IMG/VR virus record: IMGVR_UViG_3300031669_005479
Span: 96,001 to 160,000 of that record
Strand: one strand, 5' to 3'
DNA length: 64,000 nucleotides
DNA from: a virus
Taxonomy: Duplodnaviria; Caudoviricetes
The notes beneath the pieces are model-generated. The model saw only the letters and a program-made list of their open reading frames with translations. It was not told where the DNA came from and did not search any database. How positions within the stretch are numbered: the first letter of the stretch is position 1; each line of letters opens with the position of its first letter. Positions 40,752 through 46,570 of the stretch are shown piece after piece. Made by a program: the position numbers and the translations under genes.

Positions 40752-40916
40752 ATGATATACCAAATGAAAAAAAAGAAAAATTTAATCGAATCTAAAATGA
40801 TTAATATTAGAATAAATCCCATAGTATTGGATAATTATAGAGTATTTTGTGAAAAAAATGGTTATTCTGTTTCAAAAAGAATTAGAATTTTGATTGAAAA
40901 CGATATGAAACTATGA
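40752..40916 (+). CDS. Ribbon-helix-helix-like small DNA-binding protein, 54 aa (not in ORF track)
   Basis: MIYQMKKKKNLIESKMINIRINPIVLDNYRVFCEKNGYSVSKRIRILIENDMKL; strand INIRI, helix, G-x-S turn, helix; ATGA overlap with the next gene. Confidence 0.65.
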   Translation: MIYQMKKKKNLIESKMINIRINPIVLDNYRVFCEKNGYSVSKRIRILIENDMKL

Positions 40917-42613
40917 TTAATATATTGACGAATAATTTTGGGCACTGTATTAAAGAATCTAAATTATGTGCAATAGATATTAATTTATACAATAAAATTA
41001 TTGAATATAATGTAAGTAAACTACCTTGGAATCAAATGGTGTATAACTATTTGAATTCAATGGCTAAATTACCTAAATGTGCTTGTGGTGGTGAATTAAA
41101 GTTTATATCATTTAAAGAAGGGTATAGAAAATACTGCTCCATTAGATGTGCAACCAATTCTCTTGAATATAAAGAAAAAAAAGAAAACACTTTAATTGAG
41201 AAATATGGTGTAAAAAATATATCACAATCAGAATTAATCAAGAAAAAAAAAGAATTGACATTATTAAATAATTATGGTGTATCACATCCACTAAAATCAA
41301 TGGTGATTAAGAAGCGGGTCGTTATTACAAACAATTGCCGTTGGGGGGTAGATAATGTCTCACAATCAAGCATTGTTGCAGAAAAAAAAAGAAATACCAC
41401 CAATAAAAATTTTGGAGTTGATTATAATTTTCAATCAAATGAAATTAAAAAAAACATTAAATCAACAATAAAAAATAAATATGGCGTGGATTATTATGTA
41501 CAATCAATTGAAAATAAACAACGTATAACGGAAACAAATAATGAAAAAAAAATAAAATTCTGGACGAATCGGTTAAAGATAGACAGTAATGATATTGAAG
41601 TCGAGAATGATAAATTCATTATAAAAAATTTATGTAAAATACATAATCAATTTGAAATCGATAAGTATAATTTATATAATCGTTCTGCTATACAACAAAT
41701 TGAAAATATTTGCACAATATGTAATCCGATATCTAAAAGTATATCAATTAAAGAAAATGAAATTAGGGACTTTATTGAGAATGAATTAAACATTAATACA
41801 GAAAAAATTCGAATAAGCAATAAAGAAATTGATATATTTTTACCAAAACATAATTTAGGAATTGAATTTGATGGATTGTATTGGCACTCGAACATATATA
41901 AAAATAAAAATTATCATTTAAATAAAACAGAACTATGTGAATCACAAAATATTCAACTACTACATGTATTTGAAGATGAATGGATGTTTAAAAAGAGTAT
42001 CGTAAAATCAATAATTAAATCTAAATTAGGAATAGTTGATAATAAAATATTTGCAAGAAAATGTGAAATTATTGAAATTAATTCAAAATTATGCTCAAAT
42101 TTTCTTAACGTTAATCATATTCAAGGTAGTGTTAATTCTAAAATAAAAATTGGTTTATTTTATAATAATGAGTTGGTTTCTGTTATGACTTTTGGTAAAA
42201 AAAGATTATCTATGGGTAATAAGCAACAAGTAGATAATAATTACGAAATATTGAGATTTTGTAATAAATTAAATACTGTTGTTATTGGTGGTGCGAGTAA
42301 AATGCTAAAATTTTTCATAAAAAAATATCGACCTGATTCAATTACAACTTTTGCAGATAGAAGATATTCACAAGGTGATCTTTATGTGCAGTTGAAATTT
42401 ACCTTTTGCAAAAATACTGTTCCAAATTATTATTATTTTCATCCTAATAATATGATTAGATATCATCGATTCAAATTTAGAAAGGATGTGTTAGTTAGAG
42501 AAGGTTTTGATTCAACCAAAACTGAACATCAGATAATGGCCGAAAGGGGTTATAGTCGAATTTATGATTCAGGACACATGAAATTTGAAATACTCTTTGA
42601 TTTTAATATTTAA
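40913..42613 (+). CDS. Hef-like putative homing endonuclease: Zn ribbon, KYGV repeats, PD-(D/E)xK nuclease, C-terminal Mom-like GNAT domain
   Basis: CACGG..C; KYGVKNISQS-type repeats; EIDIFLPKHNLGIEFDGLYWHS; IFARKC...NHIQG...GLFYNNELVSVMTFG...EILRFC...TFADRRYS.G.LY. Confidence 0.75.
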   Translation: MINILTNNFGHCIKESKLCAIDINLYNKIIEYNVSKLPWNQMVYNYLNSMAKLPKCACGGELKFISFKEGYRKYCSIRCATNSLEYKEKKENTLIEKYGVKNISQSELIKKKKELTLLNNYGVSHPLKSMVIKKRVVITNNCRWGVDNVSQSSIVAEKKRNTTNKNFGVDYNFQSNEIKKNIKSTIKNKYGVDYYVQSIENKQRITETNNEKKIKFWTNRLKIDSNDIEVENDKFIIKNLCKIHNQFEIDKYNLYNRSAIQQIENICTICNPISKSISIKENEIRDFIENELNINTEKIRISNKEIDIFLPKHNLGIEFDGLYWHSNIYKNKNYHLNKTELCESQNIQLLHVFEDEWMFKKSIVKSIIKSKLGIVDNKIFARKCEIIEINSKLCSNFLNVNHIQGSVNSKIKIGLFYNNELVSVMTFGKKRLSMGNKQQVDNNYEILRFCNKLNTVVIGGASKMLKFFIKKYRPDSITTFADRRYSQGDLYVQLKFTFCKNTVPNYYYFHPNNMIRYHRFKFRKDVLVREGFDSTKTEHQIMAERGYSRIYDSGHMKFEILFDFNI

Positions 42614-42984: not shown

Positions 42985-43264
42985 TATCGAAGAATATCAA
43001 AATCTTGTTAGTTTGCTTGAACAGGCATTAAAATTTTATGCAAATAAGCAAAATTATGTTAGTAATACAAGCAGTAATTCGTTAATTGCTTCCGATGATT
43101 ATGGTTCACAAGCACGTTTTGCATTGAGAAAAATTGAGGAATTGAATAATATCAATACTCAAATGGAAAACGATTTTATTAAACTATCTGAATCCACTGA
43201 TGGTGATACAACAAATAGTGAATTGCTTAGGGCAATTAATGGTATTAATAATATTGGAAAATAA
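42977..43264 (+). CDS. Hypothetical protein
   Basis: Start set at MNSIEE (42977), overlapping the KTSC stop. Confidence 0.55.
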   Translation: MNSIEEYQNLVSLLEQALKFYANKQNYVSNTSSNSLIASDDYGSQARFALRKIEELNNINTQMENDFIKLSESTDGDTTNSELLRAINGINNIGK

Positions 43265-43274
43265 ATTTTAATAT

Positions 43275-43733
43275 ATGAAGATTAAATTTAAAAAATTATC
43301 ACCTAACGCCACTACGCCGTTAAAGTTAATTGATATTGATGCAGGATTTGATTTATTTGCTACATCAATGGTAGAAACAAATAGTTTTGTCGAGTATGGA
43401 ACTGATATTTCGTTTGAAATACCAGAAGGATTTGTTGGATTATTATTTCCACGTAGTTCAATCACAAAATATGATTTAATGTTGAAGAATTCAATTGGAT
43501 TAATTGATGCATCATATCGAGGTGAAATTCGTTGTAGATTTTTTGGAACAAATAATACATACTATTCTGTTGGTAGTCAAAAAACAATTATATATAGTAA
43601 AAACAGCTATAAAGTTGGTGACAGAATTGCACAAATCGTGTTCATGGAATTACCAAAAATTGAATTAGAAGAATCCGAAGAATTAAGTAATACCGAAAGA
43701 GGAACTGGTGGTTTTGGACATACTGGTGAATAA
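43275..43733 (+). CDS. dut: Trimeric dUTPase
   Basis: AGFDL, PRSSI, GLIDASYRGEI, RIAQIV, RGTGGFGHTG. Confidence 0.97.
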   Translation: MKIKFKKLSPNATTPLKLIDIDAGFDLFATSMVETNSFVEYGTDISFEIPEGFVGLLFPRSSITKYDLMLKNSIGLIDASYRGEIRCRFFGTNNTYYSVGSQKTIIYSKNSYKVGDRIAQIVFMELPKIELEESEELSNTERGTGGFGHTGE

Positions 43734-43757
43734 ATAATATTAATTAAAATAAATAAT

Positions 43758-43952
43758 ATGAAAACAGGAGCAATTACTTCAAGAAGAGAAACAGCAAAAA
43801 AATTACTTGAAACTCAACTAAAAAGAGGGACAAAACCAGAAAAAATTGATGGTAAAACCACCAATAAAATGGTACAATTGAGTCCATCAGATATTACTCG
43901 AATTACCAAAGAACTCGATAGACTAAATAATCCAAAGGGTAGTATAAAATAA
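43758..43952 (+). CDS. Small basic hypothetical protein
   Basis: 64 aa between dut and thyA. Confidence 0.55.
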   Translation: MKTGAITSRRETAKKLLETQLKRGTKPEKIDGKTTNKMVQLSPSDITRITKELDRLNNPKGSIK

Positions 43953-43972
43953 ACTTATTTTAATTATACATT

Positions 43973-45577
43973 ATGAAGCAATATTTAGAATTGTTAGAGA
44001 ATATTCTTACCAATGGTGTTGAAAAGGAAAGTGGTAGAATTAATATGCCAAATACTATTGGTATATCAAACGCCATGATTAAAATGGATTTAACAGAAGG
44101 TTTTCCATTACTTACCACAAAAAAAATGTATTGGAAAGGTATTGTTCATGAATTGTTGTGGTTTCTGAGAGGTGAAACAAATATCAAATATTTGGTTGAT
44201 AATAATGTAAATATTTGGAATGACGATGCATTTAGATTTTTTCAAGAACGTCTTTGGTTATTGCCTAATATTAAAAATATAACAATGGAAGAATTTCTTA
44301 ATAGAGTTAAGAACGAACAATTCGAAGAAAAATTTCATTATAAATATGGTGATTTGGGTCCAGTTTATGGACATAATTGGAGAAATTATAATGGTAAAGT
44401 GAACTACTATCATATTAGTAAAAAACCTAAGTTTGAATTGGATGATTCGTATGTGTTTGGTGTTGGGATCATTGAAACTTGGAGAGGCATTAAAAAACGT
44501 CCGTTATTTAATACTTGGTATAATATGATTAGTAGATGTTATAACTACTATGATCCCAATTTTTCAGTATATGGTGGTAGGGGCGTATATGTTTCAGATG
44601 ATTGGTTAAATTTTAAATTATTTGATGAAGAGGTAAAGACAATTTTAAATTATAGCAATAAATTAAACGATCCACATAAATATCAATTAGATAAAGATTA
44701 TCTGGGTGGTAAATGTTATTCAAAAGAAAATTGTATTTGGTTTAGTACTGAAAATAATTCAAGATTAACGACTAAAAATTTTGAATATATCATATCTAAT
44801 GGTGAAAAAACAATAACGACAACTAATATTCAAGGAACTGCAAATGAATTGGGAATCGAACCAACAAATTTGAATAGGGTTTGTAGTGGTGTTAGAAAAA
44901 GTGTTGGCGATTGGTATTTGGTAAGTAAAACAGATTTTAGAATTGGTGAAGACCAAATTGCTAATATTTTAAATCAATTGAAAGAAAATCCATATTCGAG
45001 ATATCATATCTTGGATGGTTGGAATCCAATACAAAGAAAAATAAGTGCACTTGCTCCATGTCATCTACTATATCAATTCATTGTAAGACCTTTGAGTTTT
45101 CATGAGAGAGAATCAATTGCAATGCAAAGAAATATTATTACTAAAGATGAGTATGGACATCTAGTTGGAGTTGATGTTGCAAATGCAGAATATGAAGAAA
45201 GAATACTTGGTGAAAATAATATTCCAAAATTTTATCTTGATTTAAATATGTATCAGAGGAGCGTTGATTCTGCACTTGGATTGGGATTTAATTTAGCTTC
45301 TATGTCATTATTGTTAATGCTATTTGCAAAGGTAAGTAATATGATTGCAGGTGTGGCAACATGGATTGGTGGTGATACACACATTTATGTTAATCATATT
45401 GATGGTATTAAAAAGCAACTGGAAAGAGAGCCATATCAATTACCTCAAATGATAATAGATAAAAAAATAAATTCACTGGATGACATTCTAGCATTAACCA
45501 TTAATGATTTTGAATTAGTTGATTATGTATCACACCCAAAAATTGATTTTGAATTATTTACTGGTTTGAAAAAATAG
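43973..45577 (+). CDS. thyA: Thymidylate synthase ThyA carrying an in-frame endonuclease insertion
   Basis: FPLLTTKK, ELLWFLRG, LGPVYG, ALAPCH, YQRSVD, FN, GDTHIY.NH. Confidence 0.92.
   Translation: MKQYLELLENILTNGVEKESGRINMPNTIGISNAMIKMDLTEGFPLLTTKKMYWKGIVHELLWFLRGETNIKYLVDNNVNIWNDDAFRFFQERLWLLPNIKNITMEEFLNRVKNEQFEEKFHYKYGDLGPVYGHNWRNYNGKVNYYHISKKPKFELDDSYVFGVGIIETWRGIKKRPLFNTWYNMISRCYNYYDPNFSVYGGRGVYVSDDWLNFKLFDEEVKTILNYSNKLNDPHKYQLDKDYLGGKCYSKENCIWFSTENNSRLTTKNFEYIISNGEKTITTTNIQGTANELGIEPTNLNRVCSGVRKSVGDWYLVSKTDFRIGEDQIANILNQLKENPYSRYHILDGWNPIQRKISALAPCHLLYQFIVRPLSFHERESIAMQRNIITKDEYGHLVGVDVANAEYEERILGENNIPKFYLDLNMYQRSVDSALGLGFNLASMSLLLMLFAKVSNMIAGVATWIGGDTHIYVNHIDGIKKQLEREPYQLPQMIIDKKINSLDDILALTINDFELVDYVSHPKIDFELFTGLKK
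44396..44941 (+). mobile_element. In-frame HNH-type homing endonuclease domain with NUMOD1-like HTH inside thyA (boundaries approximate)
   Basis: TWYNMISRCY...YGGRGVYV...W.NF..F...LDKD...YSKENCIW, then TANELGIEPTNLNRVCSGVRKS; lies between YGHNWR and DQI; no intein termini. Confidence 0.78.
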
Positions 45578-45581
45578 ATGA

Positions 45582-45827
45582 ATGATAATACTATACATAT
45601 TAATAGTATTATTGGTGCTAATAATTTTGTTATTAGCACTGGCATTGTTTTATTTTTCGAAGAAAAGTGTATACTTTTCAAATAAAGAAAATGAATTCAT
45701 TACATTTGTTATTGACATATTTGAACAATATGGAGATGATTTAGGTATTCAGTCTAAAGAACAGCATGAAAAATTGACAAATGAACTCGATAAAATTAAA
45801 AAAAAACTAAATAAAAGAGGAGAGTAA
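45582..45827 (+). CDS. Small membrane-anchored protein
   Basis: N-terminal hydrophobic stretch of about 24 aa. Confidence 0.6.
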   Translation: MIILYILIVLLVLIILLLALALFYFSKKSVYFSNKENEFITFVIDIFEQYGDDLGIQSKEQHEKLTNELDKIKKKLNKRGE

Positions 45828-45837
45828 ATTACTCTCC
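45819..45837. terminator. Hairpin between convergent genes
   Basis: GGAGAGT-aaatt-ACTCTCC flanked by A and T runs. Confidence 0.7.
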
Positions 45838-45865
45838 CTTTTTTATTCATATAATACGTTTTAGT

Positions 45866-46570
45866 CTACAATGTATATATATCGTCTTCATTTGAATCAA
45901 TATTGTACCAATTATTATAATCATAAGGGTTAATTCCCTTTCTTTCCAAATATTTTCCAGTAACAATATTTACTAATTTAGGATTTATTTGCATGTCTCT
46001 AATATCATTAAAAAAGTAATGATTTTTATCTAAACGCAATTCTTCTGGGTCATATCCCTTATACTCCCAACCATTTACAATTTTGCCACCATTTTTTAGT
46101 ATTGCAAAATGCGTATATTTGGGATTAACATTAAACATTCGTCTAGTTTCATCCATAGGTTGTTCGTCATTAATGCCATCATATAAATTACTAACAATTA
46201 ATTTGAATTCTTCTTTAGCTGGTTCAATATCGCTTTCATTGGTAATCCAATAGAAATCTTCATTTTGATTACCGTCATAATCCATTTGAATACCATTTTT
46301 TTTCAAATCTTGAATGATTTCTTGTTTTAGACTATCGTTTCTACCAATCTTAGTGACACCATTTTTACTAAACAATTCATTATACATCGTATCTGTAATT
46401 TGTTTAATTTGTGTTGCTTCTTGTTTGCTCACATAAACTTTATTTGTTGGTTTATTATAATATCCACCATCAGAAGCAACTGCAAGTTCTTCATTAAGTT
46501 TTGGTTTAAAATCGGAATTAACTTTACTCATGACCTCAAAAAGCCTTTGTTTATTACTATTTTTCATCAT
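45866..46570 (-). CDS. Probable internal head protein
   Basis: N-terminus NKQRLFEVMSKVN...LNEE shared with the ORFs at 3316 and 5459; late motif upstream. Confidence 0.5.
   Translation of the reverse strand: MMKNSNKQRLFEVMSKVNSDFKPKLNEELAVASDGGYYNKPTNKVYVSKQEATQIKQITDTMYNELFSKNGVTKIGRNDSLKQEIIQDLKKNGIQMDYDGNQNEDFYWITNESDIEPAKEEFKLIVSNLYDGINDEQPMDETRRMFNVNPKYTHFAILKNGGKIVNGWEYKGYDPEELRLDKNHYFFNDIRDMQINPKLVNIVTGKYLERKGINPYDYNNWYNIDSNEDDIYTL

What the first reader, a model, noticed from the sequence alone, without database searches (positions are those of the whole stretch)
44396..44941. HNH-type endonuclease inserted in-frame in thymidylate synthase without intein or intron signatures
Seen: about 180 codons between YGHNWR and DQI, a short variable loop in ThyA, encode an HNH-type nuclease (W..M..RCY...YGGRG...LDKD...YS.ENC.W) and a NUMOD1-like HTH. 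The insert has no stop codons, no Cys/Ser start or His-Asn end, and no recognisable group I core. Knowledge: phage thyA genes are classic homing targets (T4 td intron), normally through introns. Inference: this is a splicing-free selfish element tolerated as a surface-loop domain, giving a bifunctional ThyA-nuclease. The ThyA also deviates at SRY (usually SRR) and GFN..SM (usually PFN..SY).
Basis: partly seen in the sequence, partly recalled or inferred. Interest (0 to 1): 0.8.

Follow-up and report, generated by a model that had tools for sequence, protein, structure and literature searches.

The report
Unspliced homing-nuclease module inside phage ThyA
A soil jumbo-phage thymidylate synthase gene carries a complete homing-endonuclease-like module in frame in a surface loop, with no intron or intein to remove it, and many phage thyA genes share this layout, so it looks like a little-described way for a selfish gene to live inside an enzyme.

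Summary
The ORF at 43973..45577 (+) encodes a 534-aa ThyA. Residues 141-324 (nt 44393-44944) are an extra 184-aa module that close relatives lack (junction WRNQN|GVDQI).

The module has three parts: a linker, a 93-aa core and a C-terminal helix-turn-helix like that of I-HmuI. The core belongs to the atypical "IPA-HNH" homing-endonuclease family: its profile finds ICP1 gp59 and gp209. It has a beta-beta-alpha shape, but a conserved Asp-Lys-Asp sits where canonical HNH enzymes have the catalytic His.

I found no Rfam group I hit, no intein signature and no hidden alternative-frame ORF.

In 21 orthologue clusters the insert is exactly 184 aa. In four sequenced orthologues dN/dS is 0.04-0.38 in the insert and 0.01-0.27 in the flanking ThyA parts, so both are under selection.

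The layout is common. 88 of the best 148 family representatives are ThyA proteins with this module in frame, at two or more sites. Examples are Tenacibaculum phage PTm1 and Bacillus phage 015DV002.

Not shown: nuclease activity, and direct absence of splicing (no RNA data).

This scan has noted the same class before on other DNA (83 notes, at least 65 genomes). I found no paper describing it in thyA. The closest published case is the ShiLan insertion.

The parts
43973..45577 (+). Whole ORF: 534-aa ThyA with embedded module (P0001)
43973..44392 (+). ThyA N-terminal part, aa 1-140, up to YGHNWRNYN. It contains an L. casei-type small-domain extension.
   Evidence: Pfam/NCBIfam matches. dN/dS 0.04-0.20 among insert-bearing orthologues.
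44393..44944 (+). In-frame insert, aa 141-324, absent from close relatives
   Evidence: Alignment A1, region table, DNA junctions
44393..44491 (+). N-terminal linker of the insert, aa 141-173. Low model confidence; fast-evolving.
44492..44770 (+). IPA-HNH-like core, aa 174-266, with the W..M..RCY / YGGRG / LDKD / YS..C.W / N signature
   Evidence: AF2 pLDDT 92.4. The profile hits ICP1 gp59 and gp209. Conservation table.
44690..44698 (+). Codons GAT AAA GAT = Asp240-Lys241-Asp242, the conserved putative active-site triad. Lys241 is where HNH_3 proteins have the catalytic His.
44771..44944 (+). C-terminal beta-hairpin plus helix-turn-helix DNA-binding part, aa 267-324
   Evidence: VIA-align Z 6.7, rmsd 2.1, 55 residues to the I-HmuI C-terminal domain; Z 3.8 to the I-TevI DNA-binding domain. 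Relatives carry PF22083/NUMOD1.
44945..45577 (+). ThyA C-terminal part, aa 325-534, plus stop. It holds SRY343-344, Cys363-His364, QRSxD (428-432), Asn440, His470 and Tyr472.
45089..45226 (+). Second, family-wide hypervariable insertion, aa 373-418, after QFIVRP. It is present with or without the endonuclease module.
   Evidence: dN/dS 0.37-1.08
43275..43733 (+). dUTPase gene, part of the conserved KTSC - dUTPase - thyA neighbourhood
   Evidence: the same order occurs in relatives L007, L008, L010, L011

Best explanation
A homing-endonuclease gene of the IPA-HNH family (nuclease-like core plus I-HmuI-type helix-turn-helix) has settled in frame in the variable small-domain loop of a jumbo-phage thymidylate synthase. 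It lies between the conserved WRN and DQI motifs. It is not removed at the RNA or protein level. It is translated as a separate folded domain within ThyA, which stays functional. Shown: the anatomy, the family assignment, the lack of splicing signatures, purifying selection on both insert and ThyA, and recurrence of the layout in many thyA lineages. Inferred: the module still recognises, and probably cuts or nicks, insert-less thyA alleles around the WRN|DQI site, so that repair copies the insert and its flanks into them. Continuing spread, or a benefit in competition between co-infecting phages, would then explain why it has not decayed.
For: The open 534-codon frame has a split ThyA match and a PHROG 'HNH endonuclease' match on the insert. 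Insert-less relatives at 60-67% identity, in the same KTSC-dUTPase-thyA neighbourhood, define the junction. No Rfam hit, no intein family or terminal residues and no long alternative-frame ORF. The insert is exactly 184 aa in 21 clusters. Its dN/dS is 0.04-0.38 against 0.01-0.27 for the ThyA parts, at near-saturated synonymous divergence. ThyA catalytic residues are intact, and the 203-kb record holds no second ThyA, ThyX or DHFR. The core profile finds ICP1 gp59 (E 2e-13) and gp209 (E 3e-8), the founding IPA-HNH homing endonuclease genes (PMC10448857). All family-conserved residues, including D-K-D and N262, are present. The C-terminal part matches the I-HmuI DNA-binding domain. 88 of the top 148 family representatives are ThyA proteins with the module in frame, mostly at this same site and some at a second site. 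PTm1 gp285 and Bacillus phage 015DV002 gp207 are isolate examples, and free-standing homologues sit next to thyA in Bacillus phages. Inserts in distant ThyA lineages are 37-45% identical to this one while their ThyA flanks are only 26-40% identical. Much closer ThyAs (56-62%) lack it. A second insert type occupies the same site (P0026, P0046), and P0029 keeps a 44-aa in-frame remnant.
Against: No RNA or protein data exist, so absence of splicing is indirect (no RNA holder listed). No canonical HNH model matches. The catalytic His is replaced by Lys, and fold matches to HNH domains are weak (Foldseek E>1, VIA Z 3.9). No IPA-HNH member has been shown biochemically to cut DNA in the paper read. 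The 21 type-A inserts form one clade with the ThyA N-terminal part, which fits long vertical inheritance as well as homing. The N-versus-C tree conflict is also seen for an insert-less control clade, so it shows recombination within thyA, not homing specifically. No insert-less variant of this phage was seen in the metagenome contigs.
Confidence: 0.72

Rival explanations
1. Domesticated or nuclease-dead domain. The module came from a homing endonuclease but no longer cuts DNA. It is kept as a DNA-binding or merely structural appendage of ThyA, for example for regulation, for localisation to replicating DNA, or because its removal would disturb folding.
For: Lys replaces the HNH general-base His. 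There is no canonical HNH match. The type-A inserts are monophyletic with their ThyA N-terminal part, which is compatible with long vertical descent. Selection on the insert is strong, which a purely selfish element fixed in a lineage would not be expected to keep.
Against: The Asp-Lys-Asp triad is itself more than 90% conserved across free-standing and embedded family members and is invariant in ICP1 gp59 and gp209. It is therefore the family's normal state, not a decay mutation. The module recurs at the same conserved site in ThyA lineages only 26-40% identical, and free-standing copies sit beside thyA. That pattern is what target-specific mobility predicts.
Confidence: 0.22
2. The insert is removed after all, by an unrecognised RNA splicing, protein splicing or ribosomal bypass mechanism, so the mature enzyme is an ordinary ThyA.
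For: The same glycine codon flanks both junctions in each of five genomes (GGT/GGT or GGA/GGA), which recalls matched take-off and landing codons. There is no direct RNA or protein evidence either way.
Against: No Rfam intron hit and no Hint domain or intein terminal residues. There is no stop codon after the first Gly codon. A 549-nt bypass is about ten times longer than the 50-nt T4 gene 60 bypass (my own recollection, not checked here). The insert evolves as a protein in the ThyA frame with dN/dS well below 1 and no indels. Its end segments are part of the conserved protein family.
Confidence: 0.04
3. The ThyA is dead, and the ORF survives only as a carrier for the endonuclease-like gene.
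For: R127 (E. coli numbering) is Tyr, the glycine-rich DRTGTGT loop is divergent, and the record holds no DHFR.
Against: These deviations are invariant in the whole subfamily, including 97 insert-less clusters. The ThyA parts of insert-bearing genes have dN/dS 0.01-0.27. The Cys-His, QRSxD, Asn, His and Tyr catalytic residues are all present. From my own recollection (not checked here), the equivalent Arg179 of L. casei TS was reported to be non-essential.
Confidence: 0.02

Closest known systems
IPA-HNH homing endonuclease genes of ICP1-like phages (gp59, gp115-116, gp209; Barth, Dunham & Seed 2023, PMC10448857)
   Same: The same nuclease-like core domain. A profile built from the insert core finds ICP1 gp59 (E 2e-13) and gp209 (E 3e-8). 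W..M..RC, LDKD, Y..C and N are shared. Both sit next to or in essential DNA-metabolism genes.
   Different: The ICP1 genes are free-standing and pair the core with a C-terminal AP2 domain. Here the core is paired with an I-HmuI-type helix-turn-helix and is embedded in frame inside ThyA.
ShiLan-domain insertion in actinophage DNA methylase genes (Arsenault, Gosselin & Gogarten 2025, PMC11855218)
   Same: An insertion in a phage enzyme gene that leaves the host frame open, has no intron or intein features, and is thought to be tolerated as a loop.
   Different: In ShiLan the HNH endonuclease is encoded out of frame and the in-frame translation is a featureless loop. Here the endonuclease-like module is read in the host's own frame and no alternative-frame ORF exists.
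I-HmuI, HNH homing endonuclease of the Bacillus phage SPO1 DNA polymerase intron (PDB 1U3E)
   Same: It is the best structural match. The C-terminal DNA-binding domain aligns at Z 6.7, rmsd 2.1 A over 55 residues. The overall order is the same: nuclease core, then helix-turn-helix.
   Different: I-HmuI is intron-encoded, has a canonical His in its HNH motif (from my own knowledge) and matches HNH_3. The core here matches no HNH Pfam model and has Lys at that place.
Classical mobile elements in phage thyA/td: the T4 td group I intron with I-TevI, the Bacillus phage beta22 thyA intron, thymidylate synthase inteins, and genes split by free-standing endonuclease genes (for example Aeh1 nrdA/mobE)
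   Same: A conserved nucleotide-metabolism gene is targeted at a conserved motif, and host gene function is retained.
   Different: Those elements rely on RNA splicing, protein splicing, or splitting into two polypeptides. Here one continuous polypeptide keeps the element.

Membership tests
Thymidylate synthase ThyA (PF00303 / TIGR03284) | Profile match over the curated cut-off | tested here: met
   PF00303 E 2.5e-76, 256.8 bits against a 24.3 cut-off, in two stretches. TIGR03284 249.8 bits against a 108.35 cut-off.
Thymidylate synthase ThyA (PF00303 / TIGR03284) | Catalytic residues (E. coli C146-H147, Q165-R166-S167, D169, N177, H207, Y209, R21, R126) | tested here: met
   C363-H364, Q428-R429-S430, D432, N440, H470, Y472, R22 and R343 are present and invariant in A1. 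The R127 equivalent is Tyr344 in the whole subfamily.
IPA-HNH homing endonuclease family (Barth et al. 2023) | Sequence homology of the nuclease-like domain to ICP1 gp59/gp209 | tested here: met
   Profile A3 against the ICP1 genome hits only ORF59 (E 2.1e-13) and ORF209 (E 2.7e-8). Alignment A4.
IPA-HNH homing endonuclease family (Barth et al. 2023) | C-terminal AP2 DNA-binding domain; free-standing gene | tested here: not met
   The C-terminal part is an I-HmuI/NUMOD-like helix-turn-helix, there is no AP2 Pfam hit, and the module is embedded in ThyA.
IPA-HNH homing endonuclease family (Barth et al. 2023) | Endonuclease activity and homing | not testable with these tools
   The paper assigns the domain by HHsearch and gene context. 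The passages I read contain no cleavage assay.
Canonical HNH / His-Me finger nucleases (PF01844, PF13392) | Match to an HNH profile | tested here: not met
   No HNH family in Pfam or NCBIfam, even at E<=10. hhalign against five HNH_3 sequences aligns only 17 columns, probability 1%.
Canonical HNH / His-Me finger nucleases (PF01844, PF13392) | Beta-beta-alpha-metal fold | tested here: inconclusive
   The model (pLDDT 92) has strand 64-67, strand 82-85 and helix 86-95 in the right order. Foldseek's top rows are mostly Cas8/Cas9/Gme/ColE7 HNH domains, but at E>1. VIA best match is PacI at Z 3.9.
Canonical HNH / His-Me finger nucleases (PF01844, PF13392) | Catalytic general-base His at the end of strand 1 | tested here: not met
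   Lys241 occupies that position by spacing to the conserved Trp and Asn. It is Lys in 152 of about 160 aligned family domains.
Intein | Hint splicing domain; Cys/Ser/Thr at the first residue; His-Asn at the end; nucleophile at +1 | tested here: not met
   No Hint or intein Pfam family at E<=1. The insert starts G-K-V and ends R-I-G-E, followed by D-Q.
Group I / group II intron | Ribozyme core detectable by covariance model; reading frame normally interrupted | tested here: not met
   No intron family among the Rfam matches at E<=10 in 43000-46500. The frame is open, and the insert evolves as protein.
ShiLan-type insertion (hidden out-of-frame HNH) | Endonuclease ORF in an alternative frame of the insertion | tested here: not met
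   Within 44393-44944 the only other ORFs of 40 aa or more are two antisense ORFs of 51 and 63 aa at its edges. The homology lies in the ThyA frame.
I-HmuI NUMOD-like / NUMOD1 helix-turn-helix | Fold or profile match of the C-terminal part | tested here: met
   1u3e_M at Z 6.7, rmsd 2.1, 55 residues aligned (model 127-183 to chain 119-174); I-TevI DNA-binding domain at Z 3.8. PF22083 is found in relatives (P0133; Atlas clusters) but not in P0001 itself at Pfam thresholds.

The most novel reading that the evidence does not exclude
In-frame, non-splicing residence inside an enzyme is a distinct and widespread lifestyle of homing endonucleases. The ThyA-embedded IPA-HNH module is an active, thyA-specific nuclease that works as part of the dimeric enzyme: two modules per ThyA dimer could turn a nicking enzyme into a double-strand cutter. 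It drives its own spread, with flanking thyA sequence, between co-infecting phages, and possibly also serves as a weapon in phage-phage competition.
Probability: 0.35. Interest if true: 0.8.

Novelty: new variant of a known kind. Interest (0 to 1): 0.62.

Why it matters
Homing endonucleases are thought to survive in essential genes only by hiding in introns or inteins, or by sitting between genes. A complete endonuclease-like module that is simply translated as an extra domain of thymidylate synthase, and is kept by selection in many phage lineages, would add a third route. It would also show how new domain insertions in enzymes can arise from selfish DNA.

The system is testable. The enzyme has a simple complementation assay. 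The predicted target, the insert-less WRN|DQI region, is known from natural alleles. Cultured examples exist (Tenacibaculum phage PTm1, Bacillus phage 015DV002). It would also give the first biochemical handle on the IPA-HNH domain, whose Asp-Lys-Asp site lacks the canonical histidine.

Tried and rejected
- **Group I intron.** An Rfam scan of 43000-46500 at E<=10 gave only six sub-threshold matches to small RNAs and leaders, none an intron.
- **Intein.** No Hint family and no terminal residues.
- **ShiLan-like hidden ORF.** No alternative-frame ORF.
- **Word-index search with the insert alone.** It found no 101-322 aa relatives. The exhaustive profile search then found the family.
- **PDB sequence searches.** Profiles A2 and A3 gave nothing meaningful.
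- **Fold searches of the core.** HNH domains dominate Foldseek's list, but all at E>1. VIA best match is PacI at Z 3.9. This is no proof of the fold.
- **hhalign against a shallow HNH_3 alignment.** Only 17 columns aligned, probability 1%.
- **Foreign composition.** The insert's GC (0.22-0.32) is no different from its flanks.
- **Another copy of the module in the 203-kb record.** None found.
- **ThyX, DHFR or a second ThyA.** None in the record, which is about 66% complete.
- **RNA evidence.** No RNA holder is listed for this stretch.
- **Contig lay-down.** No contig joins across the insert. The listed joints have short sides and come from other organisms' conserved ThyA parts.
- **N-versus-C tree conflict as proof of homing.** Rejected as specific evidence, because an insert-less control clade also fails to hold together (p-AU 0.047). 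A second control did not finish.
- **Literature.** Searches found no paper describing an in-frame endonuclease module in thyA. The library lacks most subscription journals.
- **Megablast of 10 kb around the gene against phage records.** No match.
Full report
**What is there**

The window is part of a 202,814-bp IMG/VR virus record, estimated 66% complete. It is AT-rich (GC about 0.22-0.32 around the gene), and the source is probably a soil metagenome.

The ORF at 43973..45577 (+) is open for 534 codons. Pfam Thymidylat_synt matches at E 2.5e-76 in two stretches, and TIGR03284 matches well above its cut-off. The stretch in between matches PHROG 2081 'HNH endonuclease' (E about 1e-35) and four further PHROGs named HNH or restriction endonuclease. 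It matches no Pfam or NCBIfam family.

The gene follows KTSC and dUTPase genes. Relatives keep this order whether or not they carry the insert.

**Boundaries**

A word-index search returned 22 clusters of 508-542 aa covering the whole protein, 20 of them at 62-74% identity. It also returned many 335-390 aa relatives at about 60-67% identity over the shared C-terminal part that lack the middle.

Alignment A1 and the DNA junctions show this:
- Insert-less alleles read Y-G-Y-Q-W-R-N-Q-N-(G/D)-V-D-Q-I.
- This gene reads Y-G-H-N-W-R-N-Y-N-[184 aa]-D-Q-I.

It lies in the variable small-domain loop, between two conserved ThyA motifs.

They have nothing to do with the insertion.

**What the insert is**

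It has three parts.

- *Linker (aa 141-173).* It is poorly modelled and fast-evolving.
- *Core (aa 174-266).* With a 90-sequence alignment it folds with pLDDT 92.4 into helices followed by strand-strand-helix.
  - A profile of it finds exactly two genes in Vibrio phage ICP1: ORF59 (E 2e-13) and ORF209 (E 3e-8).
  - Those are the genes for which Barth, Dunham and Seed defined the 'IPA-HNH' class. They describe it as related to HNH_3 but too divergent for the Pfam profile, and recognised only by HHsearch (PMC10448857).
  - The shared signature is W..M..RC, L-D-K-D, Y-S..C.W and N.
  - Across 169 aligned domains, Asp240, Lys241 and Asp242 are each conserved in over 90%.
  - By spacing to the conserved Trp and Asn, Lys241 falls where HNH_3 proteins have the general-base His.
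  - Fold searches list mainly HNH domains (Cas8-HNH, Cas9 HNH, Gme HNH, ColE7, PacI), but none significantly: Foldseek E>1, VIA Z 3.9.
  - So the core is a member of the IPA-HNH family. Calling it an HNH nuclease is plausible but unproven.
- *C-terminal part (aa 267-324).* It aligns with the C-terminal DNA-binding domain of I-HmuI (Z 6.7, rmsd 2.1 A, 55 residues) and more weakly with the I-TevI DNA-binding domain. Relatives carry PF22083 I-HmuI_NUMOD-like or NUMOD1.

**No way out of the protein is visible**

- Rfam gives no intron match at E<=10.
- There is no Hint domain, no Cys/Ser/Thr at the first residue, no His-Asn at the end and no nucleophile after it.
- There is no sizeable alternative-frame ORF in the insert. 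This sets it apart from the ShiLan insertion of actinophage methylases, where the open host frame hides an out-of-frame HNH gene (PMC11855218).

**Selection**

In 21 orthologue clusters the insert is exactly 184 aa, without one indel, at 54-77% identity to this one.

For four orthologues with DNA, synonymous sites are near saturation (pS 0.4-0.8). The dN/dS values are:

| Region | dN/dS |
|---|---|
| Insert core | 0.11-0.38 |
| Insert helix-turn-helix | 0.04-0.30 |
| ThyA parts | 0.01-0.27 |
| Hypervariable second insertion | 0.37-1.08 |

The insert is thus read as protein in this frame and is constrained. ThyA in insert-bearing genes is constrained too, so the enzyme is not dead.

All ThyA catalytic residues are present except the R127 equivalent, which is Tyr family-wide. 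From my own recollection (not checked here), the corresponding Arg179 of L. casei TS is dispensable. The record holds no second ThyA, ThyX or DHFR, though it is incomplete.

**How common it is, and whether it moves**

An exhaustive profile search found 70,452 representative proteins with the domain at E<=1e-3. Of the best 148 representatives, 88 are ThyA proteins carrying the module in frame.
- Most have it at this same site, immediately before D-Q-(I/L).
- At least four to six have it at a second site, before G-D-L-G-P-x-Y-G.

Isolate examples:
- Tenacibaculum phages PTm1/PTm5 gp285 (second site; annotated either as thymidylate synthase or as HNH endonuclease).
- Bacillus phage 015DV002 gp207 (this site, with a longer module).

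In Bacillus phages Chotacabras and C30-1, a free-standing 240-aa homologue lies two genes upstream of an uninterrupted thyA. The ESM Atlas has a 176-member cluster of such ThyA proteins. The module family occurs in 782 phage records, mostly as free-standing genes.

Distribution does not follow ThyA descent:
- ThyAs 56-62% identical to this one lack the module.
- ThyAs only 26-40% identical carry it at the same site, with cores 37-45% identical.

Within this subfamily a second insert type, about 30% identical, occupies the same site (P0026, P0046). P0029 keeps a 44-aa in-frame remnant resembling the two ends of that type.

Trees show that the 21 type-A insert-bearing genes are one clade in the ThyA N-terminal part (SH-aLRT 99.7) but are scattered among insert-less genes in the C-terminal part (AU p 6e-136). 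An insert-less control clade also breaks up (p 0.047). I therefore read this as frequent recombination inside thyA, compatible with homing-linked co-conversion but not specific proof of it.

The same allele, both junctions included, occurs without differences in contigs from two further soil metagenome studies. No contig skips the insert.

**Reading**

The best-supported account is a homing-endonuclease gene that lives in frame in ThyA and is never removed. It is tolerated as a surface domain and kept intact by selection. That selection could be for continued spread into the many insert-less alleles, or for a benefit to the phage. Interference between co-infecting phages is one possible benefit, as reported for an intron endonuclease of PhiPA3 (PMC11620839; I saw only the abstract).

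Steps shown: anatomy, family, lack of splicing signatures, selection, recurrence.

Steps inferred: translation without removal, target recognition at the WRN|DQI region, nuclease activity, homing.

The main rival is a nuclease-dead, domesticated DNA-binding domain. Removal by an unknown mechanism and a dead ThyA are both unlikely.

**Novelty**

The parts are known: ThyA, the IPA-HNH family and the I-HmuI-type helix-turn-helix. The arrangement is what is new: a complete endonuclease-like module read in the host's own frame with no splicing element. I found it described in no paper in the searchable library. The nearest published case is ShiLan.

It is not new to this scan. 83 earlier notes in at least 65 genomes describe the same class. 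Their leads to ShiLan and IPA-HNH were checked here. This window adds:
- an intact, well-conserved example in a soil jumbo-phage lineage with abundant insert-less relatives;
- a second insert type and a deletion remnant at the same site;
- quantitative selection estimates and recombination tests.

Noticed in passing
window 40913-42613 (+): A 566-aa ORF just upstream of the KTSC-dUTPase-thyA block. It has DUF7487 repeats (E 3.5e-17), a motif (IEFDGLYWHS) that I recall from memory as Vsr/DUF559-like (not tested), and a weak sub-threshold Mom-like match. It is probably another free-standing homing-endonuclease-like gene. Relatives L007 and L008 have other genes at this position, and L012 has a DUF7487 gene downstream of thyA.
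   Followed up: partly
window 45089-45226 (aa 373-418): A second, family-wide insertion after QFIVRP is hypervariable (dN/dS 0.37-1.08) and mosaic. This phage's version is closer to those of insert-less relatives (45-52% identity to four of six compared) than to those of insert-bearing ones (15-37%). That points to recombination breakpoints inside thyA.
   Followed up: partly
window 44390-44395 and 44936-44941; same places in L007, L010, L011, L012: The glycine codon at the 5' junction and the one at the 3' junction are the same within each of five genomes (GGT/GGT in two, GGA/GGA in three). This could be a boundary ambiguity, a short direct repeat that favours precise deletion, or chance among related genomes. 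It remains unexplained.
   Followed up: no
P0029 (394-aa relative, aa 146-189): A 44-aa in-frame remnant at the same ThyA site resembles the N- and C-terminal ends of the second insert type (P0026, P0046). It looks like an internal deletion of the nuclease-like core that kept the frame.
   Followed up: partly
G000:C1:179141-179278 (outside the window; locus L023): A canonical HNH_3 gene (E 3.3e-10, 221-aa open frame) lies elsewhere in the same phage record. The phage therefore carries both canonical and IPA-type endonuclease-like genes.
   Followed up: no
L012 356-982 and 4268-5548: In a relative, the thyA neighbourhood holds a 208-aa gene with a faint HNH_3 hit upstream of dUTPase and a 426-aa DUF7487 gene downstream. 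The nucleotide-metabolism block looks like a hot spot for endonuclease-like genes.
   Followed up: no
L001 1501-3084 (Tenacibaculum phage PTm1 gp285): The same protein is annotated 'HNH endonuclease' in RefSeq and 'thymidylate synthase and pyrimidine hydroxymethylase' in GenBank. Public annotation hides the composite nature of such genes.
   Followed up: partly
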